Source: an uncultured virus (IMG/VR IMGVR_UViG_3300024327_000658) (lineage: Duplodnaviria > Heunggongvirae > Uroviricota > Caudoviricetes). From it: a stretch of 64,000 nt of DNA. Every line of letters begins with the position of its first letter. Positions within the stretch are counted from its first letter, which is position 1. Of this stretch, positions 15,918 through 38,444 are shown in pieces. The stretch lies in the IMG/VR virus record IMGVR_UViG_3300024327_000658; one strand, written 5' to 3'. The notes beneath the pieces are model-generated. The model was not told the DNA's origin, made no database searches, and saw only the letters and a program-made list of their open reading frames with translations. Made by a program: the position numbers and the translations under genes.

Positions 15918-15920
15918 TAA

Positions 15921-16541: not shown

Positions 16542-16559
16542 TAATCCATGTCCTTTGTG

Positions 16560-24081: not shown

Positions 24082-24434
24082 ACTCCTACTACATATTCAT
24101 CTGTATCAGACAATGATATTCTTACATCTTGTCTTGGGCCTTTGTATTCTTTCGATACTGAAGCATGTACAACAGGAAATCGAACCCCCCTGCTTGTCAA
24201 ATGCATGTAACTAACATCTAATCTTAAATAAGGTGAAGCTATTGCTTTAGAATATGCTTCCTTAACACACCAACATTTAGTTAAATATCTAGCAGTCATA
24301 GGACTGGGCGCATTTCTTTTTTCAATATCTGTTAATATTTTATTAACAAATTTGTCTCCCCATTTATCATATATCTTTTGAATAGGTTCGATTGTTTGTA
24401 AATCAATACCTATTAAATTTTCTCTAGCAGACAT
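24060..24434 (-). CDS. acpS: Holo-ACP synthase (AcpS-type phosphopantetheinyl transferase)
   Basis: IGIDL, F..KILT..E, WCVKEAYSKA, ISLSD; 124 aa, the size of AcpS. Confidence 0.85.
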   Translation of the reverse strand: MSARENLIGIDLQTIEPIQKIYDKWGDKFVNKILTDIEKRNAPSPMTARYLTKCWCVKEAYSKAIASPYLRLDVSYMHLTSRGVRFPVVHASVSKEYKGPRQDVRISLSDTDEYVVGVCYIWAH

Positions 24435-25441
24435 AAATCAACTTGAAATCCTGGTCCATAAGAAATCATAACCAGTTTTCCTTCTTTCATAAAATCATTT
24501 TGTAAGGTTTTTATTACACTTGTGGCAGACATATTACCAAATAATCTAAACATCTCAAAAGAAGAATCTAATGCACCGTCAGGTAAATTTAATCCTTCTG
24601 CAGTATTTTGCAAAACAACTTTTCCACCAGGATGACATATCCAATGATCAATATCATGACCTTTAATAAATTCTTCTACTTTTGGTAATAACGCATCAGC
24701 GGCTTTTGGTAGTTCCTGCAATTTAGTAGATTCTACATTATATAATAATCCTGCACTTGTTCCTTCAAGAGTAATAAAATCTTCTGTATCAGGTAAAATA
24801 TGAGATGCATGTTTAAGTACTTTCCAACCTCCGTGTTCATAATCATCACCAGCCATTAAAATAGCACTTACACCATCACCGAAAATAGTAATACCAAATA
24901 CTGTAGTAAGAGAACGATCTTCAGGATTTAAATTCATTGAAACTAAATCATTAGTGAGACAAATTACTACTTTAGTTGGGTTTGCTTTTAAAAATTCATC
25001 TGCAATTTGTATCACATGCGTACCACCATTACACGCTAAACCAAACATGGGTATTTTAATTACAGAATCAGGAAAATCAAAATGACTAAGCAATTTATGT
25101 GGTACAGTAGGAATTCCTACACCTGTCATTGTTGTAGATGTTATCATACACACATCTTCGGGAACAAGAAGGTCCAATTCCAATACTGCTTCTAATGATA
25201 ACTTATGTACTACTTCATTAAATGTTTTATTTTTTTGCGTAAAAGTTTGAGACTGTTCCCGCATTGTCTCAATAGGATAACAAGTATGTCTATATTCAAC
25301 TCCTGTCAATGGCATATATCTGTCAAATACTCTACCCGAATAACCTTTTTCTTGCCACCATTCTTTCAGCTTTACTTTGAAGTCATCATTATGTAATCGA
25401 TTTTCAGGATGTTTAGTTACTATTTGTAAAATTTTACTCAT
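24413..25441 (-). CDS. Type III polyketide synthase (chalcone-synthase fold)
   Basis: Catalytic triad Cys (GLACNGG), His (WICHPGG), Asn (FGNMSATS); also FGDG and SYGPGF. Confidence 0.9.
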   Translation of the reverse strand: MSKILQIVTKHPENRLHNDDFKVKLKEWWQEKGYSGRVFDRYMPLTGVEYRHTCYPIETMREQSQTFTQKNKTFNEVVHKLSLEAVLELDLLVPEDVCMITSTTMTGVGIPTVPHKLLSHFDFPDSVIKIPMFGLACNGGTHVIQIADEFLKANPTKVVICLTNDLVSMNLNPEDRSLTTVFGITIFGDGVSAILMAGDDYEHGGWKVLKHASHILPDTEDFITLEGTSAGLLYNVESTKLQELPKAADALLPKVEEFIKGHDIDHWICHPGGKVVLQNTAEGLNLPDGALDSSFEMFRLFGNMSATSVIKTLQNDFMKEGKLVMISYGPGFQVDLCLLEKI

Positions 25442-26043
25442 TCTGCCTCTATTGTCATTTCTCTAATACGACCACTAAAATTAATCATATGATCTATACA
25501 TTCTACACATTGTTCAGGAGAAAGCATATTTGGTTCTAGCTTATGATCATATACTCGATTTACGAGAGTTGCCAATCTTGTTGTTCTTGGAGTTTCCACC
25601 CAACCAGGTCTTAGTAGTGAAATTTTACATCCGTTATGTTTTGCAGTCTTTTCATAACATTCTAGATTAATTTTATCAAGTGATATTTTACCTGCTGTAT
25701 AACGACTATGGCCTATAGGATAATCATCTGTATCTTTTTCAGATGCGATAGAACTAACAGAGATTATATGTTTATTTGGATCATCTTTCCATAAATGAAA
25801 AACGAATAAAAGTGCTTGTGTTTGAGCCCACCATTTGTAGTCATTATATGCATTGTTTATGAATATATCACCTTTAGGATCAAACCATTCTTTAATATGT
25901 TCTATATCATGTTTATTATATCGCCTACTATGACCTTCTACCTCAATTAAGTCTTTGTATTTTGCGAGATAATTTCCATCATATTTTTCACTTAGTGCTT
26001 TTCCTATACCGGAAGTCACACCAGTTATAATCATTTTACGCAT
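25438..26043 (-). CDS. Short-chain dehydrogenase/reductase
   Basis: ITGVTSGIG, FINNA, catalytic YTAGK, PGWVET. Confidence 0.88.
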   Translation of the reverse strand: MRKMIITGVTSGIGKALSEKYDGNYLAKYKDLIEVEGHSRRYNKHDIEHIKEWFDPKGDIFINNAYNDYKWWAQTQALLFVFHLWKDDPNKHIISVSSIASEKDTDDYPIGHSRYTAGKISLDKINLECYEKTAKHNGCKISLLRPGWVETPRTTRLATLVNRVYDHKLEPNMLSPEQCVECIDHMINFSGRIREMTIEAE

Positions 26044-26287
26044 TTGCTTTTCGCTCTACCATATTATATAAATCGTTTATTGTTGTTGCTTTTTGAAACT
26101 CTTCTGCATCTAAGGCAATATTAAAAGTATCTTCAATAATTATCATTGTTTCTAAAATATGAATAGAATCAATTTCTAAATCTAAAGCAATTTTACTATC
26201 GGACTTTATCTCTGGAAAATCAATACCCGCGGCCGCTTCTTCAAACGCGGATTTACATTTTTCTTCAATTTCTTGTCGTGTGTACAT
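26036..26287 (-). CDS. acpP: Acyl carrier protein
   Basis: 83 aa, acidic; DLEIDSIHILE (Ppant Ser), IEDTFNI, TINDL. Confidence 0.88.
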   Translation of the reverse strand: MYTRQEIEEKCKSAFEEAAAGIDFPEIKSDSKIALDLEIDSIHILETMIIIEDTFNIALDAEEFQKATTINDLYNMVERKANA

Positions 26288-27047
26288 CGTATAAATCCTC
26301 TTCAGTTATTTGTTCAATGGGTTCAGCAATATAATTAAGGTCACTATGTTTTCCTGTTAATCCGTAAGCATCTGAATGATGACATAATTTATAAGACCCC
26401 TCTTTATATCCTGCTATGCTAATTAATAAATTAAACCGAGCTGTTAAACCGGCATTAATTACAGTATGATTAATGCAACTATCATCTTGATAAGAACTCC
26501 CATCTGCTGGTAAATAATATGATTGATCGTCAATAACAAAACGACATCCTGCATTAACTTCAAGGGGTATATGTATATTTTCAAAACTATCTTGATGCCA
26601 ATTTATAGTAGTTAAAGGGTTTAACATCGTTATTCTAACTCGGTCTATCTCATAATATATAGACAACTTTTTATAAATGTTATGAAATTCTGTATCTAAA
26701 TAATCTTCATTAAAAATAGTATAATCTTTACGTGTTTCAAATCTTTTTAATTTTCTATTAAAATTTGTCCCATCATGTATTATGCGCTTTAATATATTGT
26801 ACTTATAACCAGAAGAAGATGAAAAAACTGATGGTCTTTGAGGACAAAAACTTCTTACAGAATCATATAGTCTTTGTTCTGGTAAACAGTCTTTTGAATG
26901 TAAAAGTCCCAATACATAAGCATCATTAAAGTCGTCTCTTGTATTGAGATCCCATGGAGCGAATAAAGATTTTAGCGGCTGAAGTTCTTTTTGTAAACGA
27001 TCTATATCAAATTCCCAAGGTAATTTTTTTACATAAATTGGTCTCAT
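26265..27047 (-). CDS. Aspartyl/asparaginyl beta-hydroxylase-like 2OG-Fe(II) oxygenase
   Basis: RVRITML.P, WHQD, IHIPL, HTVINAG..ARFNLL. Confidence 0.75.
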   Translation of the reverse strand: MRPIYVKKLPWEFDIDRLQKELQPLKSLFAPWDLNTRDDFNDAYVLGLLHSKDCLPEQRLYDSVRSFCPQRPSVFSSSSGYKYNILKRIIHDGTNFNRKLKRFETRKDYTIFNEDYLDTEFHNIYKKLSIYYEIDRVRITMLNPLTTINWHQDSFENIHIPLEVNAGCRFVIDDQSYYLPADGSSYQDDSCINHTVINAGLTARFNLLISIAGYKEGSYKLCHHSDAYGLTGKHSDLNYIAEPIEQITEEDLYDVHTTRN

Positions 27048-27991: not shown

Positions 27992-28902
27992 TTTAGTATA
28001 CCATCTTCTCCAGGCATTACTACAGGTAGACTTGGATCAAGCGCATATTCATTTGGGAGATTTACAGTATCGTCACAATATGGAAGTTTTCCTTCAGTTG
28101 ATAATATATTCCCGTATTCATCAGCTTTTTCATTTTTTTCTCCAGTAATTTCTTCTATAGGATCGTCAATGGGTCTATTGTTTTGGCCGGCAAGTCGAAC
28201 ATCAACTATGCCCTGACCAGGAGTGTCTGCACCCTGTACTGCTTGAGGATGTTTTGCGGGAGGATATGGCCCTCCCGCATGTAAATCCAAAGAACCAACT
28301 CCATCTTGACCATGCGCATTTCCTTGAGGTTTAAATATTTGCCCTCCAACACCTTCATTAACAAAAGCATCAACATCAATAATCGCATCATCAAGAGTTT
28401 TTTTACTAAGGTCATCACGAGCAGTGTCTAGATATTCCATATAGTCTTTAGTGTTGCCTATAGCCTTAATGAGATGTTCTTTACATTGATTATCACAATA
28501 TTTATGAAAGTCAGAAGCAAACTGGCAATTACAAATCATTCCTTTTACATATTCTGCCTGTTCACCTGCTTCTGTTGTATAAGTAGGAGAGTCGTGTTCA
28601 ACCATTCCTTCCAATTCTCTCAGAGTGTATTCAACAAGCTCATCAACCTTTTTGTCTTGATTTTCATCTACTTGAATATTTTGATGAGCAGTTGGCAATC
28701 CACCGGCCGGCTGACCTGTATCGGCCGTTAAAGTTTGACTATTCATATCCGTCAACATCTGTTGCTTTTGCAACGCACTTAATCCCAAATCTAATGACTT
28801 TAGTAATGTCATACCTATTGGCTGTGTTATTTCATCATCCAATAGTGGTGATAATGCGGCAATAGCGGCATTTGTGCATTCAATAACTTTATTTTCACTC
28901 AT
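27988..28902 (-). CDS. Hypothetical acidic protein with a central Cys/His cluster
   Basis: ICNCQFASDFHKYCDNQCKEH; Pro/Gly-rich C-terminal half. Confidence 0.65.
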   Translation of the reverse strand: MSENKVIECTNAAIAALSPLLDDEITQPIGMTLLKSLDLGLSALQKQQMLTDMNSQTLTADTGQPAGGLPTAHQNIQVDENQDKKVDELVEYTLRELEGMVEHDSPTYTTEAGEQAEYVKGMICNCQFASDFHKYCDNQCKEHLIKAIGNTKDYMEYLDTARDDLSKKTLDDAIIDVDAFVNEGVGGQIFKPQGNAHGQDGVGSLDLHAGGPYPPAKHPQAVQGADTPGQGIVDVRLAGQNNRPIDDPIEEITGEKNEKADEYGNILSTEGKLPYCDDTVNLPNEYALDPSLPVVMPGEDGILK

Positions 28903-30247
28903 GATTTATCTCTCTGGGGAAATTTCTTTTTTGGGTTTCAAGCATTTCTTCTGCTATGTGATCTAAACCAGAACCCTGGCCAGAGGTATCTATTATTCCC
29001 AATCTATCAATAGCAGTTGTCGGATGACCGGTTCTAGGCAATATTCTATTTTTTTCTTCTTTATCTCCTGCATCAGGAAGATGTTTCATTCCTTTTCCTA
29101 CTCTCACTAATCCATTTTGTATTGATGCCAATCCTTGTTCTGTATAATAAAATCTATGATCTTTACGTTCTCCACAAGAATTACACATATCACAAAACAT
29201 GTGGCATACAGGAGAAAATAATTTATTTTTTATCCATTGTTTCCGTAAATAATCTATCTGTTCTTTTAATAACCAATTAATTTTTGCTTTATCTTCGGGA
29301 CTATCTTTACCCGCTAAACTTTCATCTATAGATGTAACAACTCTATCCGGTCCATATGTCTTGACTATACGCAAAATATCCTTAGCAAAACATTGTACAT
29401 TTGATCTGTGAATAGTATACCTGGCCCTCCATTTAATTTGGTCTTGGGGTGGCATATTGGAATTATAATCTGAAATATTTTTAAATGCTTTTAATACATC
29501 TGGAGTAGAATCTTTACCAGAATAATATACCCTATCTAAATTTCCTGCACCATCAAAACTAATATCAAAAGAAACCCGTTGTTTAATTCCTGGATTAGAT
29601 TCCAAAAAAGTAATAACACTATTAAAAAATTTTGGCTTACTTAAAAGTATACCATTAGTTGTTATATTGAAATGTAAATTGTGCTTCTGAGAATATGCAT
29701 AATTCATAAGATATTCACAATTTTTCCATTCTAACATCGGTTCACCACCAAAAATACAAAATAAAGTTTGTTCATCTGGTCTATCGGTTTTATTAATATC
29801 ATCTACAAGTTTTTTCAACAATGGTGGTTCGGGTAAATGTTTTGGTCGATTTTCTAAATGTTCATAGCAATAAGAACAATTTAAATTACATTGACTTGTC
29901 ATATAAAATAAATGTATACCTCCACCGTGTGCAACTCTTGTATTTTCGTTTTCACCATGAGTAAAATGTCTATCCATAATTTCATTAACATTGGCTTCTG
30001 CTAAATCAAGTCTTCCTTCTTTTAGTGCTTTAACACGGTCATAATGTTCATCTTTTGATACGCTTTCTACATGTTGTTTTACTACTTGATTCAATTCACG
30101 ATCAGTTAGAGTTAATAATTTTTTAACATCATGTTTTTCATATTTACATACACCTTCTCCTGTTTTCAATCCTCGTTCATAATCAATAACACCATCAAGA
30201 GATCCCATGGTGGGTAAAACTTTTTTAGAGCGTGTTAGTGTTTTCAC
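28895..30247 (-). CDS. Radical SAM enzyme no. 3 (short C-terminal Cys cluster)
   Basis: CNLNCSYC, IFGGEPML, ITTNG, ISFDG; C-terminal CHMFCDMCNSC. Confidence 0.9.
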   Translation of the reverse strand: MKTLTRSKKVLPTMGSLDGVIDYERGLKTGEGVCKYEKHDVKKLLTLTDRELNQVVKQHVESVSKDEHYDRVKALKEGRLDLAEANVNEIMDRHFTHGENENTRVAHGGGIHLFYMTSQCNLNCSYCYEHLENRPKHLPEPPLLKKLVDDINKTDRPDEQTLFCIFGGEPMLEWKNCEYLMNYAYSQKHNLHFNITTNGILLSKPKFFNSVITFLESNPGIKQRVSFDISFDGAGNLDRVYYSGKDSTPDVLKAFKNISDYNSNMPPQDQIKWRARYTIHRSNVQCFAKDILRIVKTYGPDRVVTSIDESLAGKDSPEDKAKINWLLKEQIDYLRKQWIKNKLFSPVCHMFCDMCNSCGERKDHRFYYTEQGLASIQNGLVRVGKGMKHLPDAGDKEEKNRILPRTGHPTTAIDRLGIIDTSGQGSGLDHIAEEMLETQKRNFPREINHE

Positions 30248-30672
30248 TATTTTCCCCTTACAACTGGTCTTTCGTCCAGTTTTCTGCGGATTTGTTCTTC
30301 TGGATTTTGTTTTAGAATATATGCTATGTTTTTCATAAGTCTAGGAAAATCAATGTTATAATTAAATAAATGTGACTTTATTCTTGTACCATCTGATTCA
30401 GGATTCCAAGAATCATAAAGTAAATTTTTATCTCTCGCTTGTTTTTTTGATGGGGTGTCTTCTAGCTGTACTTGATTAATAAGAGTTTGAATATCTCCGT
30501 CTTTTGCGGCCCTTGCCGATTTTTCATATCGCTCTACTGATTTTTTATTTTTATTATTTATTACAGCCTCTTGTCCTGAAATCGCAGGATGCCATCCTTC
30601 TTCACGATCTAGATCATTTAGTTCTTCTGGAGTTCCGTGTATCTTATTTTTTTCCATGTAACAATTTTCCAA
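30247..30672 (-). CDS. Hypothetical protein
   Basis: ORF between radical SAM genes; the start may be the ATG at 30657. Confidence 0.55.
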   Translation of the reverse strand: MENCYMEKNKIHGTPEELNDLDREEGWHPAISGQEAVINNKNKKSVERYEKSARAAKDGDIQTLINQVQLEDTPSKKQARDKNLLYDSWNPESDGTRIKSHLFNYNIDFPRLMKNIAYILKQNPEEQIRRKLDERPVVRGK

Positions 30673-31465
30673 GATATTTTATCTGTTCAAATACTCTTTC
30701 TTGTTCAATAGCCATATATTTGTAAGCAAATTCAAATTGAGTATCAGAATTGCCCCCATCAAACGTTAGCATTAATCCATTTTTTTCAAACCACGCTTTT
30801 GTTGACCAATCTTCATGGTTAAATAATTTAAAATAGTTCCACATAATTTTAATATTTTTTTCTATGGAAGACGAAAAAATATTTAAATTTTTCATTGAAT
30901 CTACAGTAAAAACTATATACGCACAACATTGCCAGTCTGTATCATATGCGGGATCGTTTTGATCGTAATGGCCCTCACACGATTCTATAACATCAACACC
31001 ATCAAATATATTAATTCCACTAACCAACGGTTCTATTCCACATTCAACAATATCTTTTTGATGATCTTTAATTTCTATGTGGCCTATCTGTAAAGCACCA
31101 AGTCTATTAAGATTTTCATAAACTTCTGTTGGTAACCCAGACATATGATCATACACTAATCCAAATTTAGATAAAAAGTTATTCAATATTAATCTAAAAG
31201 ATTTTGATGATTTCTCTGTATTTTCAATAATGATAAAATCACCTATCATATTACCACAATTTTCAATACCTGTCGTTTTTTCAATTACATGATTTAATAC
31301 CGTTAAATCAATAAGATGATCAATATCTTTTATGATAAACAAATTAGACCTAAATTGATATACTGTTACATCCTTACGATCTATTAAATATCCAGGCAAA
31401 TATTTTGTGGGACCGCCAGTGTCCGCAGTTCTGGTGTCTACTACTGGTTCATCAAATATTCCCAT
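30644..31465 (-). CDS. Hypothetical protein with SCEGH motif; paralog of 20006..20806
   Basis: VECGIEPLVSGINIFDGVDVIESCEGH...AYIVF. Confidence 0.65.
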   Translation of the reverse strand: MGIFDEPVVDTRTADTGGPTKYLPGYLIDRKDVTVYQFRSNLFIIKDIDHLIDLTVLNHVIEKTTGIENCGNMIGDFIIIENTEKSSKSFRLILNNFLSKFGLVYDHMSGLPTEVYENLNRLGALQIGHIEIKDHQKDIVECGIEPLVSGINIFDGVDVIESCEGHYDQNDPAYDTDWQCCAYIVFTVDSMKNLNIFSSSIEKNIKIMWNYFKLFNHEDWSTKAWFEKNGLMLTFDGGNSDTQFEFAYKYMAIEQERVFEQIKYLGKLLHGKK

Positions 31466-31478
31466 AAAACCTTTCTTC

Positions 31479-32807
31479 TCAAGTACCTCTTTGAAGTTTC
31501 TTTATGTTATGATTATCTTTAGATTGTAAAAAAGCCAAGGTCGAATTATAATCCTTATAATCAAAAGATTTAATTTTTTCTTCAGTTTTAATTTTAAAAT
31601 TTGTTAACCTTTTATATTTTTCATTCTTTTGCCACGCCTCATCTATCATCTCAAACATATCTACTTCTTCTTTATCTGCATTTGGCTCATAAAATCCTGT
31701 CCTACCCCCCCAAAGCGTCTTAATATATGTTTGAAAAGTTGGCATATCTTTACATATTTCTACCATTCTTATCGCTTCATCATAATATATATGAAACAAT
31801 TCGCACACAGAATCGATTGGTTGATTACCATTTCTTAATTGCGAATATGTACAACCTGCATTACACACTTTATATAATCTACATCCTTTACATTTATCAA
31901 ATGCTAAAGGATTAAATACAGATTGAAAATAATCAAAATTATATTCATCGCCTTTCATTGGTAATAATTTCTTTGAGCCAAATCTTGCACATGGATAAAA
32001 TGTTCCATCTACTGCCATAATAGAACCATGATGACCAGCAAAACACCCGAATGCTCGTTTTTGTTTAGTTAATCCTAATAACATGTCTTGTAGGGGAAGA
32101 TTAAACATTCCATTAGATATTAATTTTCCTTCATCATAATATTGTATGGTTCTATCTGCCAGTCTTCGACATTCCACTCTAAATTTATGAATATCGTCTA
32201 GGGACCAAATATCATCTCTTACAATAGAAAAATCAGGAGCAGGAATACCGAAATCTACTAAAAATTCAAAATTTTCTGTCATTGAATCAACATTGCCTGG
32301 AAATATCATAATTTTACATGTTTTATTATGTTTTGTAACTTTCTTTATAAGATGTTGTCTATCACTGTACATCTCTAAAACATTATTGTATCCTTTATTC
32401 TCTCCAAAATTTTTAATAATAGGTCTTGATTCGTTTGCTGATATACCATCAAAACTCCAACTAACTCCAATCTGATTATCTAATATCCAATCAGCAGTTT
32501 CTTCGTTAATTAACGATAGATTAGATATCATAGTAAGACCAACCAATCTATCCTCATATTCAGGAACTTTAACTTTTTTACAAACATGATCCATCAATGG
32601 CACATTTAATAGTGGTTCGCCCCCAAAAAAAGATAAATGAAATTGTTGACCATGGGCTTTTGATCTTTGAATTAATTGTAAAAATTCTGGCCAAGCCTTA
32701 TCAAAAATTTCAGGAGTCATAAATTTATCAACATTAGCAACATAGCAATACGGGCACCCCAAATTGCATTTTTCTGTTACAGATATTTCTAATTGATAAC
32801 TAGGCAT
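31479..32807 (-). CDS. Radical SAM/SPASM enzyme no. 2
   Basis: CNLGCPYC, FFGGEPLLN, SFDG; SPASM CFAG...DGTFYPC...CKGCRLYKVCNAGC...C. The ATG at 32807 (MPSYQ) is preferred over the track start at 32864. Confidence 0.93.
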   Translation of the reverse strand: MPSYQLEISVTEKCNLGCPYCYVANVDKFMTPEIFDKAWPEFLQLIQRSKAHGQQFHLSFFGGEPLLNVPLMDHVCKKVKVPEYEDRLVGLTMISNLSLINEETADWILDNQIGVSWSFDGISANESRPIIKNFGENKGYNNVLEMYSDRQHLIKKVTKHNKTCKIMIFPGNVDSMTENFEFLVDFGIPAPDFSIVRDDIWSLDDIHKFRVECRRLADRTIQYYDEGKLISNGMFNLPLQDMLLGLTKQKRAFGCFAGHHGSIMAVDGTFYPCARFGSKKLLPMKGDEYNFDYFQSVFNPLAFDKCKGCRLYKVCNAGCTYSQLRNGNQPIDSVCELFHIYYDEAIRMVEICKDMPTFQTYIKTLWGGRTGFYEPNADKEEVDMFEMIDEAWQKNEKYKRLTNFKIKTEEKIKSFDYKDYNSTLAFLQSKDNHNIKKLQRGT

Positions 32808-34350
32808 ATTTGCTCTCTGTAGTTTCTGATCTCTTTGGTAAGCTTGATATATTAAAAACTGCACCTATATTCTTGGCCGTTTCTGAAGTGGGCTCTTTGG
32901 ATAAACCAGATATAACAGGAGTTTGCTGTTCAATAGAATTGACTTCTAAATTATGACCCTGCGAATAATTTCCTGGTCTATTCATCATAATTATTGAATC
33001 CGGATTCTTTTTAATCCACAGGGTTCTCCATGCTTTAGATACAGGCTCCAGTGTTTTCCATACTTGACACAATTGATGATTTGCTGGATGATTTTGCCAT
33101 TTTTTACCAGCATCCTGTTCTTCACCAAATTTTGCATCTGCGGCATCAAATGAACCCGCAGGACACTTTAAACAAAAATCCGCTGTACATGTATTACACG
33201 CTAATGTTCCATCTGTTCTAAATTCATCCAAATAAGAACGATATAATGATGTTGTTTCATCCACAAATTTTTGCATTTGCATACCAGATTCCATTAAATC
33301 GCCTCTTACATGATCCTCTCTTTGTCTATACATACACCCATGACAAGGATATGTTTTACCGTCTAAATCAATTGAAAGATAATTAATACCAGCCGCACAA
33401 TTTTGTTTTTCTTTTCTGAACCATCTAAAGTGATTTTCTAAATTAATATCATGATCTATACTATATTTCACAATTTTCATTAAATTCACTCTTAGATCCT
33501 TTAAGTGACCCATATATTCTTCTTCCTTAACTGCACCATCAATTCTATCTGGATCTGTACTGTGAGTGTCAGGAGTGGGTCCATATGATTCTCCATTATC
33601 ATAATGCCATTTCCAAACATCAAAAAGATATTTAAAATTGCGAGATGATATGACTGCTTTAATACCTATAGAAAAACCATCAGATTTTAACTCTTTATAA
33701 GTTGCATAAACAGTTTTAGATAATTTTTCACTTTCTCCTGCTTTAGTTCTACGTTCCATCGTATTAACAGGTTCACCATCAAAAGATACTTGAATATGTA
33801 AACGTGATTGTTGCGGCATATCTAATCTATTTCCCAACAGACCTTTTAATTCTATTAACTGTTTTTTATACTTTTTAAGATAAGTTCCATTAGTATAGAA
33901 CATAAAACATACTTTTTGAGTATCAGCCAATCTTTTCATTATATCTTTGCAAAAAAGAAAATTAGCAAAAGGTTCTCCGCCCCACCAATTTATATTAATA
34001 TCTCTATACCTATCCATATCCAATGACCTAACTGTTTTTTCTATATCTTCAGGAGTCATCTCTGTTTTTTCTTGATATTGTGATGACAATCCGCACGATT
34101 CTCCTTCAGAACAATATGTACAAGCAAGATTACATTCACTCGTTACATTAACATCTAAATTAAAACTTTGCATTGGATTAAAATTATTTGACATTGCACC
34201 ACCACCCTGTCCCTGGGGCATTGTTGATCCCCCCATCTGTTTTAACATTTTTTCTTGTTCTTCCATCGTTTTTCGCATTTGCATCATTTGCTGTTGCATT
34301 TGTTCGGGTGACATTTGTTCTTTTATAGGATCAAATCGGATATTATTCAT
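32800..34350 (-). CDS. Radical SAM/SPASM enzyme no. 1
   Basis: CNLACTYC, WWGGEPF, YTNG, VSFDG; SPASM CAAG...DGKTYPCHGC...CNTC...CLKC...C; Met/Gln-rich N-terminal extension. Confidence 0.93.
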   Translation of the reverse strand: MNNIRFDPIKEQMSPEQMQQQMMQMRKTMEEQEKMLKQMGGSTMPQGQGGGAMSNNFNPMQSFNLDVNVTSECNLACTYCSEGESCGLSSQYQEKTEMTPEDIEKTVRSLDMDRYRDININWWGGEPFANFLFCKDIMKRLADTQKVCFMFYTNGTYLKKYKKQLIELKGLLGNRLDMPQQSRLHIQVSFDGEPVNTMERRTKAGESEKLSKTVYATYKELKSDGFSIGIKAVISSRNFKYLFDVWKWHYDNGESYGPTPDTHSTDPDRIDGAVKEEEYMGHLKDLRVNLMKIVKYSIDHDINLENHFRWFRKEKQNCAAGINYLSIDLDGKTYPCHGCMYRQREDHVRGDLMESGMQMQKFVDETTSLYRSYLDEFRTDGTLACNTCTADFCLKCPAGSFDAADAKFGEEQDAGKKWQNHPANHQLCQVWKTLEPVSKAWRTLWIKKNPDSIIMMNRPGNYSQGHNLEVNSIEQQTPVISGLSKEPTSETAKNIGAVFNISSLPKRSETTESKYA

Positions 34351-34353
34351 TTT

Positions 34354-34965
34354 TTATTTCGAGTTATTACAGTTACATGGACAGTGATTACAATCACATG
34401 GACAAAAATTACAGTTACATGGACAAAAATTACAGTTACAAGGACAGAAATTACAATTACAGGGACAAAAATTACAATTACAGGGACAAAAATTACAATT
34501 ACAGGGACAAAAATTACAGTTACATGGACAGTGATTACAATTACATGGACAAAAATTACAATCACATGGACAAAAATTACAATCACATGGACAAAAATTA
34601 CAATTACATGGACAAAAATCACAATCACATACGCACACAACTTTCCATTCATCGAGTTTTGTTACCAGATCGTCTATATGTGCGGCGGCTATTAAATCTC
34701 CGACACTTACAGCACCATAAGATAATGTTGGTGCGGGACTTGGTGGAGTTTGGGTATATAACTTACTTACTATTTCTCCACGCAATTCATTCCAAATTTG
34801 TGCGGCGACAGGATCTGCCATGCTGGTCCAAGATGAAATCGCTATACTTCTTCTTGTAAACTCATCATTTAATGAAGTTCTGCAAGTAGTTATCTCTGAC
34901 TGCTGAATTAGTGTACCAGCTTGTGCAGGTAAACCAGTTAAATTGGTAGGACATGGCGAACCCAT
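34354..34965 (-). CDS. Cys-rich repeat protein, candidate radical SAM substrate
   Basis: 110-aa N-terminal domain, then 13 heptads C[P/V]C[N/D]C[N/D][F/H/N] (39 Cys); directly upstream of the rSAM genes; GGAG Shine-Dalgarno. Confidence 0.85.
   Translation of the reverse strand: MGSPCPTNLTGLPAQAGTLIQQSEITTCRTSLNDEFTRRSIAISSWTSMADPVAAQIWNELRGEIVSKLYTQTPPSPAPTLSYGAVSVGDLIAAAHIDDLVTKLDEWKVVCVCDCDFCPCNCNFCPCDCNFCPCDCNFCPCNCNHCPCNCNFCPCNCNFCPCNCNFCPCNCNFCPCNCNFCPCNCNFCPCDCNHCPCNCNNSK
34363..34635. repeat. 21-bp coding tandem repeat, 13 copies
   Basis: Units like aaaattacaattacagggaca; many substitutions are synonymous in the Cys frame. Confidence 0.95.
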
Positions 34966-35132
34966 TATATTTTACTCCAAAATTTATTCCGTATTAATTT
35001 ATCATCATTTCCCAAATAAAGAAAATTTGTGATTCTTGAACCAAGTTTCTTTAATAACATTTCTTCATCTATCTCACTATCAAAATCAAGATTACCCCAA
35101 AAAGGTGCATCAGTTATATTTGCATATTCCAA
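34965..35132 (-). CDS. Small hypothetical protein (55 aa, TTG start) in frame with the upstream fibre gene
   Basis: Hand-translated: LEYANITDAPFWGNLDFDSEIDEEMLLKKLGSRITNFLYLGNDDKLIRNKFWSKI. Its TAA overlaps the next ATG (TAATG). Confidence 0.45.
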   Translation of the reverse strand: MEYANITDAPFWGNLDFDSEIDEEMLLKKLGSRITNFLYLGNDDKLIRNKFWSKI

Positions 35133-35144
35133 TATCGTATACTT

Positions 35145-38100
35145 TCATATTTTCACTTCAACAAATCCAGCATCACTATCAGACAATGCTATTCCAATTA
35201 AATCGTGTTTATGTGATTTATATTCATATTTAGTTATAGATTTTCCTGCACCATCATTATAAGCCATAATAAGGTCCCCTTTAACACATCTTCCCACAAT
35301 CTTAACTAATATTCTTCCGGTCAAACAAATAAAGATCATAAATTCATTTTTTCTCTGTTCCATACTATCATTCATCCTCAATCCAGGATTATCTGAAACA
35401 ACACCAGCATAAGGCATTTCAGCTTGATATAGAGTAACTTCTTTTTCTCCTCCAATTGATAAAACAGTTCCTGGATCATATACCAAATCAGACTCATATC
35501 TCTCGGCCAAGTCAGACCAACTCGCTGATGTTGCTCTTCCATTAAATGTAACCGCATACATATCGTTATATACCATTGTAGATGTACCGATATCGTGTGT
35601 ATTATTTGCGACAGGAACAATGGCCTTAGTTGTCATTGTTCCATCAAAACCAGAAGTTCCATATACTTTTAAAGCTGATAATCCAGTCACTCCACTTGAA
35701 GAAAAAATAGCACCATTAAAATACAATTCTGTTGGTGTAGTAATATCATTTACTCTATATCCAGAATACGCTCCAAGCGAAGATGATGATGCATAATATT
35801 GAACATATCCAGCGGCTCCTGCTGGACTGGTCGGCGCTCCATCAGCTCCAGAACTTCCAGCAGAGCCAGATGTTCCAGCAGTACCAGCACTTCCTGCACT
35901 TCCAGCAGAACCAGATGATGCATATGTTAATCCAGAAGAACCAGCAGTCCCAGACGTTCCAGAAGAACCAGCAGAGCCAGAAGTTCCCGCAGATCCAGAC
36001 GTTCCAGCAGAACCAGAAGAACCAGAAGAACCAGCAGTACCAGATGATCCAGAAGTTCCAGAACTTCCTTCTCCAAAAGTTAATGCCGCCCAACCAGATA
36101 TTGCAGTAGCAAAAACTAATTTAGCGGTATTTGAACTAATATAACGAATTGATTCTGGATAAATTACATCATAGTTAGAATCTACAACTTCAATATTTAA
36201 AGGTCTAACTCCTAAATTATGATTTATTAACCAAACAGAACTTGCTGAACCTTGAACATGAATCCAGGAACCACCATCTTGACCAGAAGAACCAGCACTT
36301 CCAGCACTTCCTGCGGAACCCGCACTTCCTGCAGTTCCAGCAGAACCAGAAGAACCAGAAGAACCAGCAGTACCAGATGATCCAGAAGTTCCAGCAGAGC
36401 CAGATGATCCTGCACTTCCAGCACTTCCTGCACTTCCAGAAGAACCAGCAGAACCAGAAGAGCCAGCGGAACCAGATGTTCCAGCAGAGCCAGAAGTTCC
36501 AGCAGAGCCAGCACTACCAGCACTTCCTGCAGAACCAGCAGAACCAGCACTTCCAGCAGAGCCAGATGATCCAGATGATCCAGAAGTTCCAGCACTACCA
36601 GCACTTCCTGCAGAACCAGCAGAACCAGCACTTCCAGCAGAGCCAGATGATCCAGATGATCCAGAAGTTCCAGCGGTACCAGAATCACCAGTTCTTGCGA
36701 ATGAAGCAACAATTTCAGTATTGTTTTGAAAATTATTTAATGAAGAATCTAAAAATGTAACATCCACATAATACCATGAGGGATTTGTGGTATCAAATTC
36801 ATTAATGCTGTATAAGAAATACTTTTCAGGAGCTGATTTATCATAAATTCGAAAATGGCCTTTTGGAACACTAAAAGCAACATCATCAATTGTCTGTAAG
36901 AAAGAATCAATTGTCGTGCCATCTTGATCAGTATCACTTATTCTCAATCTATTAGCAGTAGTGGGATATGTAAAAGCACCAGTAGTTAATGTAAATGCCA
37001 ATTTACCCGTACCTGGATCATTCGTTGATTGATCTGTACTGTAACGATATGCAAATGAAGCACCCCCAAAACCACCATCATGTCCAGATGAACCAGAAGT
37101 ACCAACAGTCCCAGAACTTCCAGAACTTCCAGCAGAACCAGATGTTCCAGATGATCCAGAAGTTCCAACACTTCCAGAAGAACCCGCAGAACCAGCAGAA
37201 CCAGAAGATGCATATGTCAATCCAGAAGAACCAGCAGAACCAGATGTTCCAGCAGAACCAGATGTTCCAGATGATCCAGAAGTTCCAGCACTTCCTGCAG
37301 AACCAGCAGAACCAGCAGAACCAGCACTTCCAGCAGAGCCAGCACTTCCTGCAGTTCCAGCACTTCCAGAAGAACCAGCAGAACCAGAAGAACCAGAAGA
37401 TGCATATGTCAATCCAGAAGAACCAGCAGAACCAGAAGTACCAATTGGACCATCAGCTCCAGATGATCCAGAAGTTCCAGCACTTCCAGCAGAACCCGCA
37501 GAACCCGCAGTTCCAGAAATTCCAGAAGAACCAGCACTTCCAGCAGAGCCAGCACTTCCTGCAGAACCAGTACTTCCAGAAGAACCTGCAGTTCCAGAAG
37601 TTCCCGCAGTTCCAGAAATTCCAGAAGAACCAGATGTTCCAGATGATCCTGCACTTCCAGCACTTCCTGCACTTCCAGAAGAACCAGCAGAACCAGAAGT
37701 ACCAATTGGACCATCAGCTCCAGATGATCCAGAAGTTCCAGCAGAGCCAGAAGAAGCATATGTCAATCCAGAAGAACCAGCAGAACCAGAAGTTCCAATT
37801 GGACCATCAGCACCAGAAGTTCCAGATGTTCCAGCAGAGCCAGCACTTCCCGCAGAACCCGCAGTTCCAGAAATTCCAGAAGAACCAGCACTTCCAGCAG
37901 AACCAGAAGATGCATATGTCAAGCCAGAACTTCCGGAACTACCCGCACTTCCGGAAGAAGTATCCCCTCCTCCGCCTCCACCAGATTCTCCCCAACCACT
38001 TCCACCGGCCACTCGTTGGGCAGTTAAAGTGGCTTTTTTACTAATCTTTTTAACAACTTCTTTAAAATTATCTAACTCTTTTACGAGTTTAGTTACATCA

Positions 38101-38444
38101 GCATCATCACCAGATTCTCCCTTTTCTCCCATTGGTCCTATAGGTCCAATATCTCCTAAATCTCCCCTAGGACCCTGAACACCTTGTGGACCAATTCTTC
38201 CTGATATTCCTTTAACGCCCACTTCGCCAGCAAGCCCCTTTTCGCCCTTTTCTCCCTTTTCTCCCTTAGGACCTACAGTGCCTTTAATTTCAAGAACTTT
38301 AACTGTTTCACCAGTAACAGGATCTAAAATTTCTTTTATATCCTCTACAAGTTCTTCTTTAGTTTTTTTTAATTGTTTTTTAGTATAAGCAAGAGAAGTT
38401 GCTAGAACCTTACTTAAATCTAAATCTTTTTGATCGTCTTTCAT
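35145..38444 (-). CDS. Collagen-like / Gly-Ser-Ala repeat fibre protein with a fibre-chaperone-like C-terminus
   Basis: GPKGEKGEKG collagen tract; three long G-[S/T]-[A/S] tracts separated by globular domains; WLINHNLG motif; C-terminal DLAERYESD..YDPGTVLSIGGEKEVT...GRILVK. Confidence 0.8.
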   Translation of the reverse strand: MKDDQKDLDLSKVLATSLAYTKKQLKKTKEELVEDIKEILDPVTGETVKVLEIKGTVGPKGEKGEKGEKGLAGEVGVKGISGRIGPQGVQGPRGDLGDIGPIGPMGEKGESGDDADVTKLVKELDNFKEVVKKISKKATLTAQRVAGGSGWGESGGGGGGDTSSGSAGSSGSSGLTYASSGSAGSAGSSGISGTAGSAGSAGSAGTSGTSGADGPIGTSGSAGSSGLTYASSGSAGTSGSSGADGPIGTSGSAGSSGSAGSAGSAGSSGTSGSSGISGTAGTSGTAGSSGSTGSAGSAGSAGSAGSSGISGTAGSAGSAGSAGTSGSSGADGPIGTSGSAGSSGLTYASSGSSGSAGSSGSAGTAGSAGSAGSAGSAGSAGSAGSAGTSGSSGTSGSAGTSGSAGSSGLTYASSGSAGSAGSSGSVGTSGSSGTSGSAGSSGSSGTVGTSGSSGHDGGFGGASFAYRYSTDQSTNDPGTGKLAFTLTTGAFTYPTTANRLRISDTDQDGTTIDSFLQTIDDVAFSVPKGHFRIYDKSAPEKYFLYSINEFDTTNPSWYYVDVTFLDSSLNNFQNNTEIVASFARTGDSGTAGTSGSSGSSGSAGSAGSAGSAGSAGSAGTSGSSGSSGSAGSAGSAGSAGSAGSAGSAGTSGSAGTSGSAGSSGSAGSSGSAGSAGSAGSSGSAGTSGSSGTAGSSGSSGSAGTAGSAGSAGSAGSAGSSGQDGGSWIHVQGSASSVWLINHNLGVRPLNIEVVDSNYDVIYPESIRYISSNTAKLVFATAISGWAALTFGEGSSGTSGSSGTAGSSGSSGSAGTSGSAGTSGSAGSSGTSGTAGSSGLTYASSGSAGSAGSAGTAGTSGSAGSSGADGAPTSPAGAAGYVQYYASSSSLGAYSGYRVNDITTPTELYFNGAIFSSSGVTGLSALKVYGTSGFDGTMTTKAIVPVANNTHDIGTSTMVYNDMYAVTFNGRATSASWSDLAERYESDLVYDPGTVLSIGGEKEVTLYQAEMPYAGVVSDNPGLRMNDSMEQRKNEFMIFICLTGRILVKIVGRCVKGDLIMAYNDGAGKSITKYEYKSHKHDLIGIALSDSDAGFVEVKI
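35840..37960. repeat. 9-bp-period coding repeats (Gly-X-X tracts), three blocks
   Basis: ccagcagaa/ccagaagaa/ccagcactt units in blocks at about 35840-36070, 36280-36690 and 37080-37960. Confidence 0.9.

What the first reader, a model, noticed from the sequence alone, without database searches (positions are those of the whole stretch)
28895..34965. CPCNCNF x13 repeat protein with three dedicated radical SAM enzymes: candidate new RiPP-like or protein cross-linking system
Seen: 13 heptads CxC[N/D]C[N/D][F/H/N] with 39 Cys in 91 residues, immediately followed by two rSAM/SPASM genes and a third rSAM. Known: SPASM enzymes install Cys-to-carbon thioethers (sactipeptides; ranthipeptides, which include Asp and Asn acceptors) and aromatic cyclophanes on neighbouring precursors. 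Inference: the Cys next to Asn/Asp and the Phe/His in each heptad are cross-linking sites, giving a periodically stapled rod. The alternative is a metallothionein-like metal or Fe-S binding tail.
Basis: partly seen in the sequence, partly recalled or inferred. Interest (0 to 1): 0.93.

Follow-up and report, generated by a model that had tools for sequence, protein, structure and literature searches.

The report
Cysteine-repeat phage fibre with rSAM enzymes
A marine T4-like phage encodes a small fibre-type protein ending in 13 copies of Cys-x-Cys-x-Cys-x-x, and in dozens of phage lineages this protein sits beside the same radical-SAM enzymes, which probably modify it chemically; nobody has tested this.

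Summary
ORF 34354-34965(-) encodes 203 aa: a helical N-domain, then 13 heptads CxC[ND]C[ND][FHN] holding 39 Cys. Two full SPASM radical-SAM genes follow, then two small ORFs and a third rSAM.

The window is a T4-like marine myovirus. The cassette lies in the tail-fibre operon.

A DNA pattern for the Cys repeat alone found 43 viral loci; 42 carry homologues of these rSAMs within a few kb on the same strand. They occur in at least three gene orders. In reverse, 27 of 31 loci with an rSAM2 orthologue have an intact Cys-repeat ORF.

The protein family has 521 representatives and is almost only viral. It is fibre-like: about half of 212 members end in a peptidase-S74 chaperone motif or domain, and collagen-like fibre genes are frequent neighbours.

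All three enzymes are closest to thioether-forming maturases (PapB, QhpD, CteB) but belong to none.

Best reading: a phage fibre whose Cys stalk is modified by dedicated rSAMs, most likely by thioether cross-links. The chemistry, virion location and trimer state are untested. Metal binding remains a live rival.

No paper makes this link. A recent Pfam family name suggests curators have noticed it.

The parts
34354..34965 (-). Cys-heptad protein, 203 aa, the presumed substrate
   Evidence: ORF. No Pfam or NCBIfam hit. phrog_26958 hit at 1.4e-22. Profile family of 521 representatives.
34636..34965 (-). N-terminal domain (residues 1-110): three helices, conserved E..RR motif, and an amphipathic helix leading into the repeats
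   Evidence: AF2 block pLDDT 85-93 over most of residues 21-100, dipping to 65 at 71-80; helices 22-38, 55-69, 94-108. E35, R38, R39 nearly invariant in 45 sequences. No fold match.
34363..34635 (-). 13 heptads C[PV]C[ND]C[ND][FHN] (residues 111-201), followed by Ser-Lys and stop
   Evidence: Family-wide heptad is C[P/T]C[N/D/Q]C[N/D][Y/F/H], from 416 heptads in 76 proteins.
32800..34350 (-). rSAM1 (orthogroup R0), radical SAM with full SPASM; N-terminal ~60 aa rich in Q and M
   Evidence: Pfam Radical_SAM 45 bits, SPASM 16.7 bits below cutoff. C73/C77/C80 plus 7 auxiliary Cys conserved in 26 orthologues. Best NCBIfam hit PapB, 75 bits against cutoff 340.
31479..32864 (-). rSAM2 (orthogroup R1), radical SAM with full SPASM; the true start is probably the ATG at 32807
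   Evidence: Pfam. PapB 135.5 bits, E 2e-39, over the full profile but below cutoff 340. C33/C37/C40 plus C274, C292, C325, C328, C334, C338, C354 invariant. Orthologues begin at the window's Met20.
30644..31465 (-). 273-aa ORF of unknown function; shared only with the closest clade (L007, 37% identity)
30247..30672 (-). 141-aa ORF, member of the small 'c8' family that always lies directly upstream of rSAM3 orthologues
   Evidence: hmmsearch with the c8 profile gives E 4.4e-6. Alignment A4 shows the HLFxYxxD motif. The AF2 model was too poor to interpret.
28895..30247 (-). rSAM3 (orthogroup R2), radical SAM with one C-terminal CX3CX2CX2C group; ~110-aa N-terminal extension in this clade
   Evidence: Pfam Radical_SAM 39.7 bits. 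C120/C124/C127 plus C348/C352/C355/C358 invariant in 22 orthologues. Residues 43 onward align to the N-terminal parts of the HxsB, CcpM and SCIFF maturase profiles.
35145..38444 (-). Context: 1099-aa collagen-like tail-fibre gene directly upstream in the same operon
   Evidence: Pfam Collagen 220 bits. PHROG tail-fibre families. A collagen-like gene is a neighbour in 17 of 28 representative loci.
34965..35132 (-). 55-aa ORF between the fibre gene and the Cys-heptad gene; its stop overlaps the ATG of the Cys gene
   Evidence: No family hit.

Best explanation
The 203-aa protein is a phage fibre-type structural protein. Its C-terminal stalk of CxCxC[N/D][Y/F/H] heptads is the substrate of three dedicated radical-SAM enzymes encoded beside it. 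In the infected cell the enzymes act on the newly made, unfolded chain. Each abstracts a hydrogen atom from a carbon, most likely joining Cys sulfur to a neighbouring Asn/Asp or aromatic residue as a thioether. This would turn the repeat into a covalently stapled, redox-independent rod at the distal end of a small fibre. Shown: the repeat, the enzymes' intact cofactor motifs, conserved gene linkage across many phage lineages, and the fibre-type C-terminal modules in homologues. Inferred: that the enzymes act on this protein, that the product is a thioether, that the protein is in the virion, and that it is a trimer.
For: Linkage. A Cys-repeat DNA pattern that carries no rSAM information found 43 viral loci on 39 contigs. 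42 of the 43 have tblastn hits to the window's rSAMs within about 6 kb on the same strand. The miss, L012, has the Cys ORF at the contig edge.

In 28 representative loci, R0 is present in 26, R1 in 26, R2 in 23, and all three in 22. At least three gene orders occur: CYS-R0-R1-..-R2; R0-R1-c8-R2-c7-CYS; R1-x-R2-R0-CYS.

Reverse test. 27 of 31 loci with an R1 orthologue of 200 bits or more have an intact Cys-repeat ORF, and one more (L064) has a truncated remnant. More distant single rSAMs also sit next to other Cys-repeat tails: L083, L086, L088/89/96, L092, L099/L120, L107.

Base rate. Only 20-23 of 50,697 GenBank phage records have any homologue of rSAM1 or rSAM2.

Enzymes. All cofactor Cys are invariant across orthologues. 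The best NCBIfam hit for all three is the PapB ranthipeptide maturase, then QhpD for rSAM2. All 17 R1 orthologues hit PapB, which gives the strongest E-value among the families tabulated. The best solved structure for all three is 5WGG/5WHY, which I recall as the thioether-forming CteB.

Fibre nature. Pfam PF13884 lies above its cutoff at the C-terminus of homologues L016 and L025 and in the ORF that follows others. 100 of 212 family members carry the S74 motif or domain directly after the repeats. That domain matches virion structural proteins of other phages. The gene is translationally coupled to a collagen-like tail-fibre gene. A pelagimyophage paper notes rSAM cassettes inside the host-recognition cluster (PMC7029224, passages).
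Against: No chemistry has been observed. All three enzymes score far below every curated family cutoff (135, 75 and 63 bits against 340 for PapB), so their reaction cannot be read from family membership.

The heptad lacks PapB's Cys-X3-Asp register. Counting four residues on from each Cys, C1 meets C5, C3 meets Y/F/H7, and C5 meets P/T2'.

The window protein itself has no S74 motif and ends in NNSK. No virion proteomics could be read.

The repeat region folds with low confidence as a monomer, pLDDT 39-53.

Linkage is not absolute. L070 has R1 and R0 but no Cys-repeat gene. L129 has a Campylobacter-phage-type Cys-repeat protein with no rSAM hit in 14.5 kb. In Campylobacter phage CP220 the three homologues are dispersed, near 164.8, 16.3 and 84.0 kb.

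Carrier genomes hold 7-16 rSAM genes, so some proximity could reflect a general rSAM island.

Many loci are related phages, so the counts are not independent events.

A tail with 43% Cys is also what a metal-binding protein would look like.
Confidence: 0.5

Rival explanations
1. Same enzyme-substrate pair but different chemistry. One or more of the three rSAMs does not make Cys thioethers. Candidates are epimerisation of alternate residues, Cys conversion to formylglycine or dehydroalanine, or carbon-carbon cross-links to the Tyr/Phe/His at heptad position 7.
For: The weaker hit lists include the epimerase YydG in the PDB search for rSAM1 (E 2.4e-4). The NCBIfam lists include anaerobic sulfatase maturase and the cyclophane-forming YhhB/XyeB. 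An aromatic residue at position 7 is conserved: Y 198, F 145, H 55 of 416 heptads. Three distinct enzymes suggest up to three distinct reactions.
Against: For each enzyme the best family hit (PapB) and the best solved-structure hit (5WGG/5WHY; recalled as the thioether-forming CteB) point to thioether formation. For rSAM2 QhpD and SCIFF also rank high; for rSAM1 and rSAM3 the next hits are other peptide maturases. The three invariant Cys per heptad are the obvious reactive groups.
Confidence: 0.15
2. Metal-binding stalk. The CxCxC heptads line the core of a fibre with thiolates that hold metal ions, as the His-x-His motifs of the T4 long-tail-fibre tip hold iron (recalled). On this reading the neighbouring rSAMs act on something else.
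For: 39 Cys in 91 residues, in an alternating pattern that would place all thiols on one face of a strand. The setting is fibre-type. In some lineages further rSAMs and a UDP-glucose-dehydrogenase-like gene lie nearby, so other substrates exist.
Against: This does not explain why R0, R1 and R2 in particular stay next to the Cys-repeat gene through three rearranged gene orders. It also does not explain why distant Cys-repeat tails of other sequence each have their own adjacent SPASM enzyme. The rSAMs belong to the peptide-maturase branch.
Confidence: 0.15
3. Released RiPP-like product. The ~110-aa N-domain is a long leader and the repeats are a core that is modified, cut off, and acts outside the virion, for example against competitors or on the host.
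For: The layout is precursor plus maturases. Tandem paralogous precursors occur: four in L020 and three in L027. Repeat number varies between near-identical phages, 13 against 11 against at least 16 units.
Against: No leader protease or exporter appeared among the 20 window ORFs (22.6-43.2 kb) scanned with Pfam or in the conserved neighbour clusters. S74 chaperone modules mark trimeric virion fibres. The cassette sits in tail-fibre clusters. Most lineages' rSAMs have no N-terminal extension that could hold a leader-recognition domain; they are 290-375 aa long.
Confidence: 0.12
4. Iron-sulfur donor. The Cys-rich protein stores or delivers Fe-S clusters for the many phage rSAM enzymes.
For: Genomes with the cassette encode 7-16 rSAM genes, each needing one to three clusters.
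Against: It bears no likeness to known scaffold families in Pfam or NCBIfam. S74 and Hint-type self-processing modules and variable N-domains are not expected of a scaffold. Linkage is to three particular orthogroups, not to rSAM number.
Confidence: 0.05

Closest known systems
PapB / freyrasin (ranthipeptide; NCBIfam NF047865)
   Same: A SPASM rSAM acting on a precursor with a tandemly repeated Cys motif. It is the best NCBIfam hit for all three window enzymes, and all 17 R1 orthologues hit it with the strongest E-value among the families tabulated.
   Different: Scores are 135, 75 and 63 bits against a cutoff of 340. The repeat is CxCxC[ND][YFH], not Cys-X3-Asp. There are three enzymes, not one. 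The substrate is a ~200-aa phage fibre-type protein. The PapB chemistry is recalled, not taken from a call.
QhpD / QhpC (quinohemoprotein amine dehydrogenase maturation; TIGR03906)
   Same: An rSAM/SPASM enzyme that cross-links Cys to Asp/Glu within a protein subunit rather than a short peptide (recalled). It is the second-best hit for rSAM2 at 82.9 bits.
   Different: The score is far below the cutoff of 453. No dehydrogenase genes are nearby. The substrate here is repetitive.
CteB / SCIFF maturase (PDB 5WGG, 5WHY; TIGR03974)
   Same: Closest solved structure by sequence for all three enzymes, at E 1.9e-13, 7.8e-5 and 7.4e-9.
   Different: The similarity is low. rSAM2 lacks CteB's N-terminal region, because the alignment begins at CteB residue 100. 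The name CteB is recalled; the PDB record says only 'Radical SAM domain protein'.
His-Xaa-Ser system HxsABCD (TIGR03977/03978)
   Same: A short tandem-repeat target served by more than one dedicated rSAM. HxsB and HxsC appear in the hit lists.
   Different: Scores are well below the cutoffs. The repeat is different, and that system is bacterial, not viral. The system description is recalled.
Phage fibres and spikes with a C-terminal peptidase-S74 intramolecular chaperone (PF13884)
   Same: Homologues of the window protein end in this domain above the Pfam cutoff (28.1, 29.7 and 30.9 bits against 22). The domain matches virion structural proteins of other phages.
   Different: The window protein itself lacks it. 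No known S74 fibre is reported with a Cys-heptad stalk or with rSAM partners (ten literature searches).
Campylobacter phage CP220 CPT_0180 / gp140 (Firehammervirus)
   Same: A 534-aa protein with seven CxCDCNY/CxCNCNY heptads. An rSAM1 homologue lies 2.3 kb downstream. This is the only cultured lineage found with the system.
   Different: It is much larger, with a further C-terminal region. The R1-like and R2-like genes lie elsewhere in the genome. The 2010 genome paper noted only a 21-bp intragenic repeat and many rSAM genes, without linking them (PMC2853527, passages).
Pfam 38.1 PF27846 'tSAM_targ_Cxxx_rpt'
   Same: The nearest named ESM-Atlas clusters are viral, 200-250 aa, and carry this family in 19-52% of members. 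One is auto-named 'Modification target Cys-rich repeat domain-containing protein'.
   Different: Atlas scores of 0.82-0.86 are leads only. The model is not in the local Pfam copy, so membership could not be tested. No paper was found.

Membership tests
PapB-family ranthipeptide maturase (NF047865) | Score at or above the curated cutoff of 340 bits | tested here: not met
   135.5 (rSAM2), 75.4 (rSAM1) and 62.9 (rSAM3) bits. The best of 17 R1 orthologues reaches E 4.8e-43, still below the cutoff.
PapB-family ranthipeptide maturase (NF047865) | Substrate with repeated Cys-X3-Asp/Glu motifs (recalled definition) | tested here: not met
   In the heptad C[PT]C[NDQ]C[ND][YFH], no Cys has Asp or Glu four residues downstream.
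Radical SAM / SPASM peptide-maturase superfamily | CX3CX2C motif plus a seven-Cys SPASM set | tested here: met
   Met for rSAM1 and rSAM2: invariant in 26 orthologues each. rSAM3 has CX3CX2C and only one four-Cys group.
RiPP biosynthetic cluster | Precursor gene adjacent to its maturase, conserved across lineages | tested here: met
   42 of 43 loci forward and 27 of 31 loci reverse.
RiPP biosynthetic cluster | Leader-recognition (RRE) domain in a maturase or as a separate protein | tested here: inconclusive
   Residues 43-113 of the window's rSAM3 align to the N-terminal parts of the HxsB, CcpM and SCIFF profiles. Most orthologues lack that extension. The model of the small c8 protein was too poor to judge: pLDDT 60, pTM 0.27.
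RiPP biosynthetic cluster | Leader peptidase and/or exporter in the cluster | tested here: not met
   None among the 20 window ORFs (22.6-43.2 kb) scanned with Pfam, nor in the conserved neighbour clusters.
Phage fibre with peptidase-S74 intramolecular chaperone (PF13884) | S74 domain at the C-terminus | tested here: not met
   The window protein ends ...CNCNNSK with no Pfam hit. The feature is met in homologues: L016 28.1 bits, L025 29.7 bits, split ORF c10 30.9 bits. 100 of 212 family members carry the motif or domain by a regular-expression count.
Phage fibre with peptidase-S74 intramolecular chaperone (PF13884) | Presence in the virion and a trimeric state | not testable with these tools
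   The virion proteome tables of phage IBB_35 could not be read.
Pfam PF27846 tSAM_targ_Cxxx_rpt | Match to the family model | not testable with these tools
   The model is absent from the local Pfam copy. Only ESM-Atlas neighbourhood evidence exists, at scores 0.82-0.86.
CXXX-repeat target system (TIGR04115 maturase) | Maturase above cutoff 350 and a CXXX repeat register | tested here: not met
   rSAM2 scores 70.5 bits and rSAM3 52.4 bits. The repeat register is CxCxCxx with period 7.
Metallothionein-like metal-binding protein | High Cys content with C-x-C motifs, and bound metal | tested here: inconclusive
   The Cys content and C-x-C pattern are met. Metal binding cannot be tested here. No Pfam metallothionein hit.

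The most novel reading that the evidence does not exclude
Tailed phages use RiPP-type radical-SAM enzymes to build a structural material. On this reading the distal stalk of a virion fibre is a rod of enzyme-installed thioether staples (or other radical-derived links), three per seven residues, made by three specialised maturases. It would be the first enzyme-installed RiPP-type cross-linking of a virus structural protein, and a new class of covalently reinforced fibrous protein. It is widespread in abundant marine myoviruses and present in Campylobacter biocontrol phages.
Probability: 0.35. Interest if true: 0.9.

Novelty: new variant of a known kind. Interest (0 to 1): 0.8.

Why it matters
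Radical-SAM/SPASM maturases are known from bacterial peptide natural products and a few enzyme subunits. Here three of them are tied to a virus fibre-type protein across many phage lineages.

If they cross-link it, phages have a way to stiffen or protect a host-recognition structure that works in the reducing cytoplasm and needs no disulfides. That would also explain why some phages, including Campylobacter phages, carry puzzlingly many rSAM genes.

The window's stretch 28895-35200 is near-identical (99% of sampled words) in 14 marine or seawater metagenome runs. These runs name 11 studies, and two name none. So the system is ecologically common.

It would add a repetitive, genetically encoded, polycyclic scaffold and three new maturases to the enzymology toolbox.

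Tried and rejected
- Homotrimer prediction of the window protein (three copies, alignment A2) gave no verdict: score 0.00 against a mark of 0.42, and the controls were not run. It counts neither for nor against a trimer.
- Fold searches with the AF2 model found nothing usable. Foldseek against PDB and BFVD gave no match at E <= 0.001. VIA-align wide gave a best Z of 7.1, within the range the tool calls common for helical models.
- The AF2 model of the small c8 protein was too poor to test an RRE-like fold.
- tblastn of the whole Cys-repeat protein and megablast of the region against GenBank phages found nothing. The tool filters low-complexity sequence and may withhold near-identical records.
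- The search for related loci with alignment A1 failed for lack of a conserved stretch, so a degenerate DNA pattern was used instead.
- The T4 late-promoter motif TATAAATA is not enriched: 10 matches against 14.4 expected. None lies upstream of the cassette.
- The Asp/Asn beta-hydroxylase-like gene at 26265-27047 was considered as a fourth modifier. It was set aside because tblastn finds it only in the three loci identical to the window (L001-L003), not in L007 or further relatives.
- Supplementary proteome tables of phage IBB_35 could not be read.
- Earlier findings and the whole genome were not available.
- RNA-library contigs from four metatranscriptome runs cover 22-28 of 30 bins of the region at 99% identity or more. 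The tool warns that DNA may be present in such libraries, so this is not proof of transcription.
- Cluster look-up gave no source names for eight family members.


Full report
**Observation.** The ORF at 34354-34965 on the minus strand encodes 203 residues. Residues 111-201 are 13 heptads, CVCDCDF followed by twelve units CPC[N/D]CN[F/H/N]. They hold 39 Cys in 91 residues. Tandem Repeats Finder gives a 21-base period, 12.6 copies and score 390 at 34366-34630.

Of the 91 repeat codons, 19 differ from the unit consensus. Ten are synonymous and nine are N>D, F>H, F>N or P>V. None removes a Cys. The Cys frame is therefore the selected one. The overlapping ORFs in other frames listed are by-products of the repeat.

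**Setting.** The window is a T4-like myovirus. It has a T4 gp20-type portal (593 bits), a tail tube and a sheath. The portal is about 54% identical to those of Synechococcus phages. Base composition is 26-46% G+C across 2-kb windows, mostly 29-36%. Almost all the long ORFs are on the minus strand.

The Cys-heptad gene follows a 1099-aa collagen-like tail-fibre gene and a 55-aa ORF whose stop overlaps its ATG. The rSAM1 start lies 4 nt after its stop. The genes look translationally coupled within the fibre operon.

**The enzymes.** rSAM1 (32800-34350), rSAM2 (31479-32864) and rSAM3 (28895-30247) all match Pfam Radical_SAM above its cutoff. Orthologue alignment suggests rSAM2 really starts at the ATG at 32807.

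Across 26, 26 and 22 orthologues the CX3CX2C motif is conserved in every group. It is invariant in R1 and R2 and present in 96% of R0. rSAM1 and rSAM2 each keep seven further invariant Cys, a full SPASM set. rSAM3 keeps one CX3CX2CX2C group.

The best NCBIfam match for all three is the PapB ranthipeptide maturase, at 135.5, 75.4 and 62.9 bits. For rSAM2 the next hits are QhpD, a nif11-type maturase, the CXXX-repeat maturase, CcpM and the SCIFF maturase. For rSAM1 and rSAM3 other peptide maturases follow PapB. All are far below the curated cutoffs. All 17 R1 orthologues scanned hit PapB, which gives the strongest E-value among the families tabulated.

The closest solved structure by sequence for all three is 5WGG/5WHY. 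I recall this as the thioether-forming CteB.

So these are peptide- or protein-modifying SPASM enzymes. Their nearest characterised relatives make Cys-to-carbon thioethers, but they belong to no curated family.

**The protein family.** A word-indexed search found 36 relatives. A profile search of 1.84 billion representatives found 521 at E <= 1e-3, 314 at <= 1e-10 and 52 at <= 1e-30. The matches span both the N-domain and the repeats.

Members share an E..RR motif, an amphipathic helix and then the repeats. Over 416 canonical heptads in 76 proteins the consensus is:
- position 1: C
- position 2: P 170, T 165
- position 3: C
- position 4: N 255, D 128, Q 23
- position 5: C
- position 6: N 360, D 52
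- position 7: Y 198, F 145, H 55

Unit spacing is 7 residues (392 cases), 8 (84) or 9 (9).

No Pfam or NCBIfam model in the local copies matches the window protein or 13 other members. PHROG 26958, of unknown function, does match.

**Forward linkage test.** A degenerate DNA pattern encoding CNCNYCTC[D/N]CN carries no information about rSAMs. It found 43 loci on 39 viral contigs. tblastn with the window's three rSAMs hit 42 of the 43, within about 6 kb and on the strand of the Cys-repeat ORF. The exception, L012, has the Cys ORF at the very edge of its contig.

I reduced the set to 28 representative loci (27 lineages plus the window) and clustered all ORFs.

| Orthogroup | Window gene | Present in |
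|---|---|---|
| R0 | rSAM1 | 26 of 28 |
| R1 | rSAM2 | 26 of 28 |
| R2 | rSAM3 | 23 of 28 |
| all three | | 22 of 28 |

The gene order differs between groups:
- the window clade has CYS-R0-R1-x-c8-R2;
- a large group has R0-R1-c8-R2-c7-CYS;
- another has R1-x-R2-R0-CYS, or R1-x-R0-CYS in the three loci that lack R2.

Linkage that survives such rearrangement argues for a functional tie rather than shared ancestry of one gene order. The loci are related phages, though, so the counts are not independent events.

**Reverse linkage test.** A search with an alignment of R1 orthologues returned 76 loci. Of the 31 with an R1 match of at least 200 bits, 27 have an intact Cys-repeat ORF. The four exceptions are:
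- L064, which keeps only a 71-aa N-terminal remnant identical to L034's protein;
- L069, where R1 lies 807 bases from the contig end;
- L081, which is Campylobacter phage CPt10, where the gene lies elsewhere in the genome;
- L070, which truly lacks it downstream of R0.

Among the 45 weaker loci, six have a Cys-repeat ORF by the same regular expression. Four more show one on inspection, directly beside the rSAM. Their repeats differ: (CT)n in L088/89/96; (CGCECPEE)n at the end of a 2079-aa protein in L107; CxCNVD-type units in L083; and short tails in L092, L099 and L120. The other 35 have none and are distant rSAMs.

As a base rate, only 20 and 23 of 50,697 GenBank phage records hold any homologue of rSAM1 or rSAM2. 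Fifteen of these in each case are Campylobacter Firehammervirus phages.

**Evidence that the protein is fibre-type.**
- Pfam PF13884 (peptidase S74, 'chaperone of endosialidase') matches the C-termini of the L016 and L025 homologues, at 28.1 and 29.7 bits against a cutoff of 22.
- Many members stop right after the first strand of that domain (...CNCNYSDxRLKxxIxY-stop). In eight representative loci a ~90-aa ORF follows. It matches PF13884 positions 16-53 at 30.9 bits and is homologous to the fused C-termini. This is a split S74 domain.
- By a regular-expression count over 212 family sequences, 79 end in the motif and 21 carry the full domain. 88 end right after the repeats, often exactly at ...CNCNY. 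About five continue into a Hint/intein-like domain. This classification is approximate.
- The S74 part of one homologue matches 'structural protein' genes of unrelated phages.
- A collagen-like fibre gene is a neighbour in 17 of 28 loci.
- In a paper on pelagimyophages I read passages stating that rSAM gene cassettes occur within the host-recognition cluster next to the tail fibres (PMC7029224).
- The window protein and its clade lack the S74 motif and end in NNSK, NFGPK or NQGK.

**Structure.** AF2 with a 45-row alignment gives a confident three-helix N-domain, with block pLDDT 85-93 over most of residues 21-100 and a dip to 65 at 71-80. The helices are 22-38, 55-69 and 94-108. The repeat region is low-confidence and irregular, pLDDT 39-53. 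This is expected if it folds only as an oligomer, with metal, or after modification.

**Distribution.**
- The same DNA pattern hit only two contigs among the genomes of 185,579 prokaryote species, both from MAGs. One has an R0-like rSAM beside the gene. The other is a Campylobacter-phage-like 835-aa protein with no rSAM hit in 14.5 kb.
- Near-complete carrier genomes of 177-214 kb hold 7-16 Radical_SAM matches.
- In 13-15 loci a second block of five further rSAM orthogroups follows the cassette, with a UDP-glucose-dehydrogenase-like gene. This block is absent from the window.
- In Campylobacter phage CP220 the 534-aa protein gp140 carries seven heptads. An R0-like gene lies 2.3 kb downstream, and the R1-like and R2-like genes lie near 16.3 and 84.0 kb.
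- The window's stretch 28895-35200 is 99% present in 14 marine or seawater DNA runs. These name 11 studies, and two name none. It is partly present in 6 metatranscriptome runs.

**Prior knowledge.** Ten full-text searches found no paper that links a Cys-repeat phage protein to rSAM enzymes.

The CP220/CPt10 genome paper notes a 21-bp repeat inside CPT_0180. It separately notes 11-12 rSAM genes, which it interprets as metabolic (PMC2853527, passages). The IBB_35 paper lists rSAM genes as an oddity (PMC3322345, passages). Its proteome tables could not be read.

The ESM Atlas places the protein nearest to viral clusters of 200-250 aa. 19-52% of their members carry Pfam 38.1 PF27846 'tSAM_targ_Cxxx_rpt'. 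One cluster is auto-named 'Modification target Cys-rich repeat domain-containing protein' (scores 0.82-0.86). That model is not in the local Pfam copy. This suggests database curators have already flagged such repeats as modification targets. I could not verify it.

**Mechanism.**
Shown:
- a strongly selected CxCxC[N/D][Y/F/H] repeat;
- three catalytically intact rSAM enzymes;
- their conserved linkage to the repeat gene;
- fibre-type modules in the family.

Inferred:
- the enzymes modify the repeat before the chain folds;
- the likeliest reaction is Cys-to-carbon thioether formation, possibly one enzyme per Cys position, with Asn/Asp at positions 4 and 6 or the aromatic residue at position 7 as acceptors;
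- the product is a covalently stapled distal stalk of a small, probably trimeric fibre.

The register is not PapB's Cys-X3-Asp, so the acceptor sites are open. Rival readings are other radical chemistry on the same substrate, a metal-binding stalk with unrelated rSAM neighbours, a released RiPP-like product, and an Fe-S donor.

**Limits.** Nothing here measures chemistry, virion content or oligomeric state. Many loci are related. IMG/VR contigs identical to the window (L001-L003, L052-L053) are not independent. The enzyme names PapB chemistry, CteB, QhpD chemistry and T4 gp37 HxH are from recall.

Noticed in passing
L038:10206-10481; L020:9548-12112 and the ORF after it; L027, L033, L035, L039: Split peptidase-S74 chaperone. 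The Cys-repeat genes end with the first ~13 residues of the domain (SDxRLKxxIxY-stop), and a separate ~90-aa ORF encodes the rest (PF13884 positions 16-53). L020 has four tandem Cys-repeat paralogues and L027 three, each set followed by a single such ORF. This suggests a chaperone half that acts in trans.
   Followed up: partly
P0095, P0111, P0115, P0153, P0065 (family members): In these proteins the Cys repeats run into a ~320-aa Hint/intein-like C-terminal domain (Pfam Hint_2, 27.2 bits on P0115, just below cutoff) in place of S74. This is a second kind of self-processing module at the same position.
   Followed up: partly
L008, L009, L015, L016, L020, L025, L027, L031, L034, L043, L044, L049, L050 (downstream of the cassette): A second conserved block: c2-c6-c3, then further rSAM orthogroups (R4, R5, R6, R7). 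R3 clusters with them but shows only a weak GT2-like hit and no Radical_SAM hit in Pfam. There is also a U32-like ORF, and a UDP-glucose/GDP-mannose-dehydrogenase-like gene lies upstream. Whole genomes carry 7-16 rSAM genes. Function unknown.
   Followed up: partly
window 22565-27047 (-): Downstream island: Asp/Asn beta-hydroxylase-like 2OG oxygenase, acyl carrier protein, short-chain dehydrogenase, KASIII/type III PKS-like synthase, phosphopantetheinyl transferase, fatty-acid desaturase and a 2OG-Fe(II) oxygenase. This looks like a phage-borne lipid or polyketide-type pathway.
   Followed up: no
L088:5956-6537, L089, L096; L107:3760-9996; L086:9540-9965 and 13875-16844; L093:7792-9255: Other Cys-repeat tails next to distant SPASM rSAMs: (CT)n after a His-rich domain; (CGCECPEE)n at the end of a 2079-aa protein; CxCDCD-type repeats plus two large Cys-rich proteins; and a 488-aa CSGxC-repeat protein. 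The theme is broader than one family.
   Followed up: partly
window 34363-34635; P0002; L004, L005: Repeat number varies among near-identical phages: 13 units in the window, 11 in P0002 (93% identical overall), and 11 and at least 16 in the two clade relatives L005 and L004. The stalk length behaves like a variable-number tandem repeat.
   Followed up: partly
window 31479-32864: The listed GTG start at 32864 would overlap rSAM1 by 65 nt. All orthologues start at the position of Met20, so the ATG at 32807 is the likelier start, with an 8-nt overlap.
   Followed up: yes
window 35145-38444: The 1099-aa fibre is built of long G-S-A/G-T-S collagen-like tracts interrupted by globular inserts. It raises local G+C to 46% and creates many spurious ORFs on both strands.
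   Followed up: no
window 28895-35200: The stretch is 99% present in 14 marine or seawater metagenome runs (11 named studies, 2012-2019). Contigs from four metatranscriptome libraries cover most of it at 99% identity or more. The phage is common in the sea. Transcription is suggested but not proven.
   Followed up: partly
L129 (MAG contig, 3481 onward): An 835-aa protein resembling Campylobacter phage gp140 (N-domain, six CxC[DN]CNY heptads, then scattered CxCxxN motifs) on a contig binned to an Anaeromicropila MAG. No rSAM hit within 14.5 kb.
   Followed up: no
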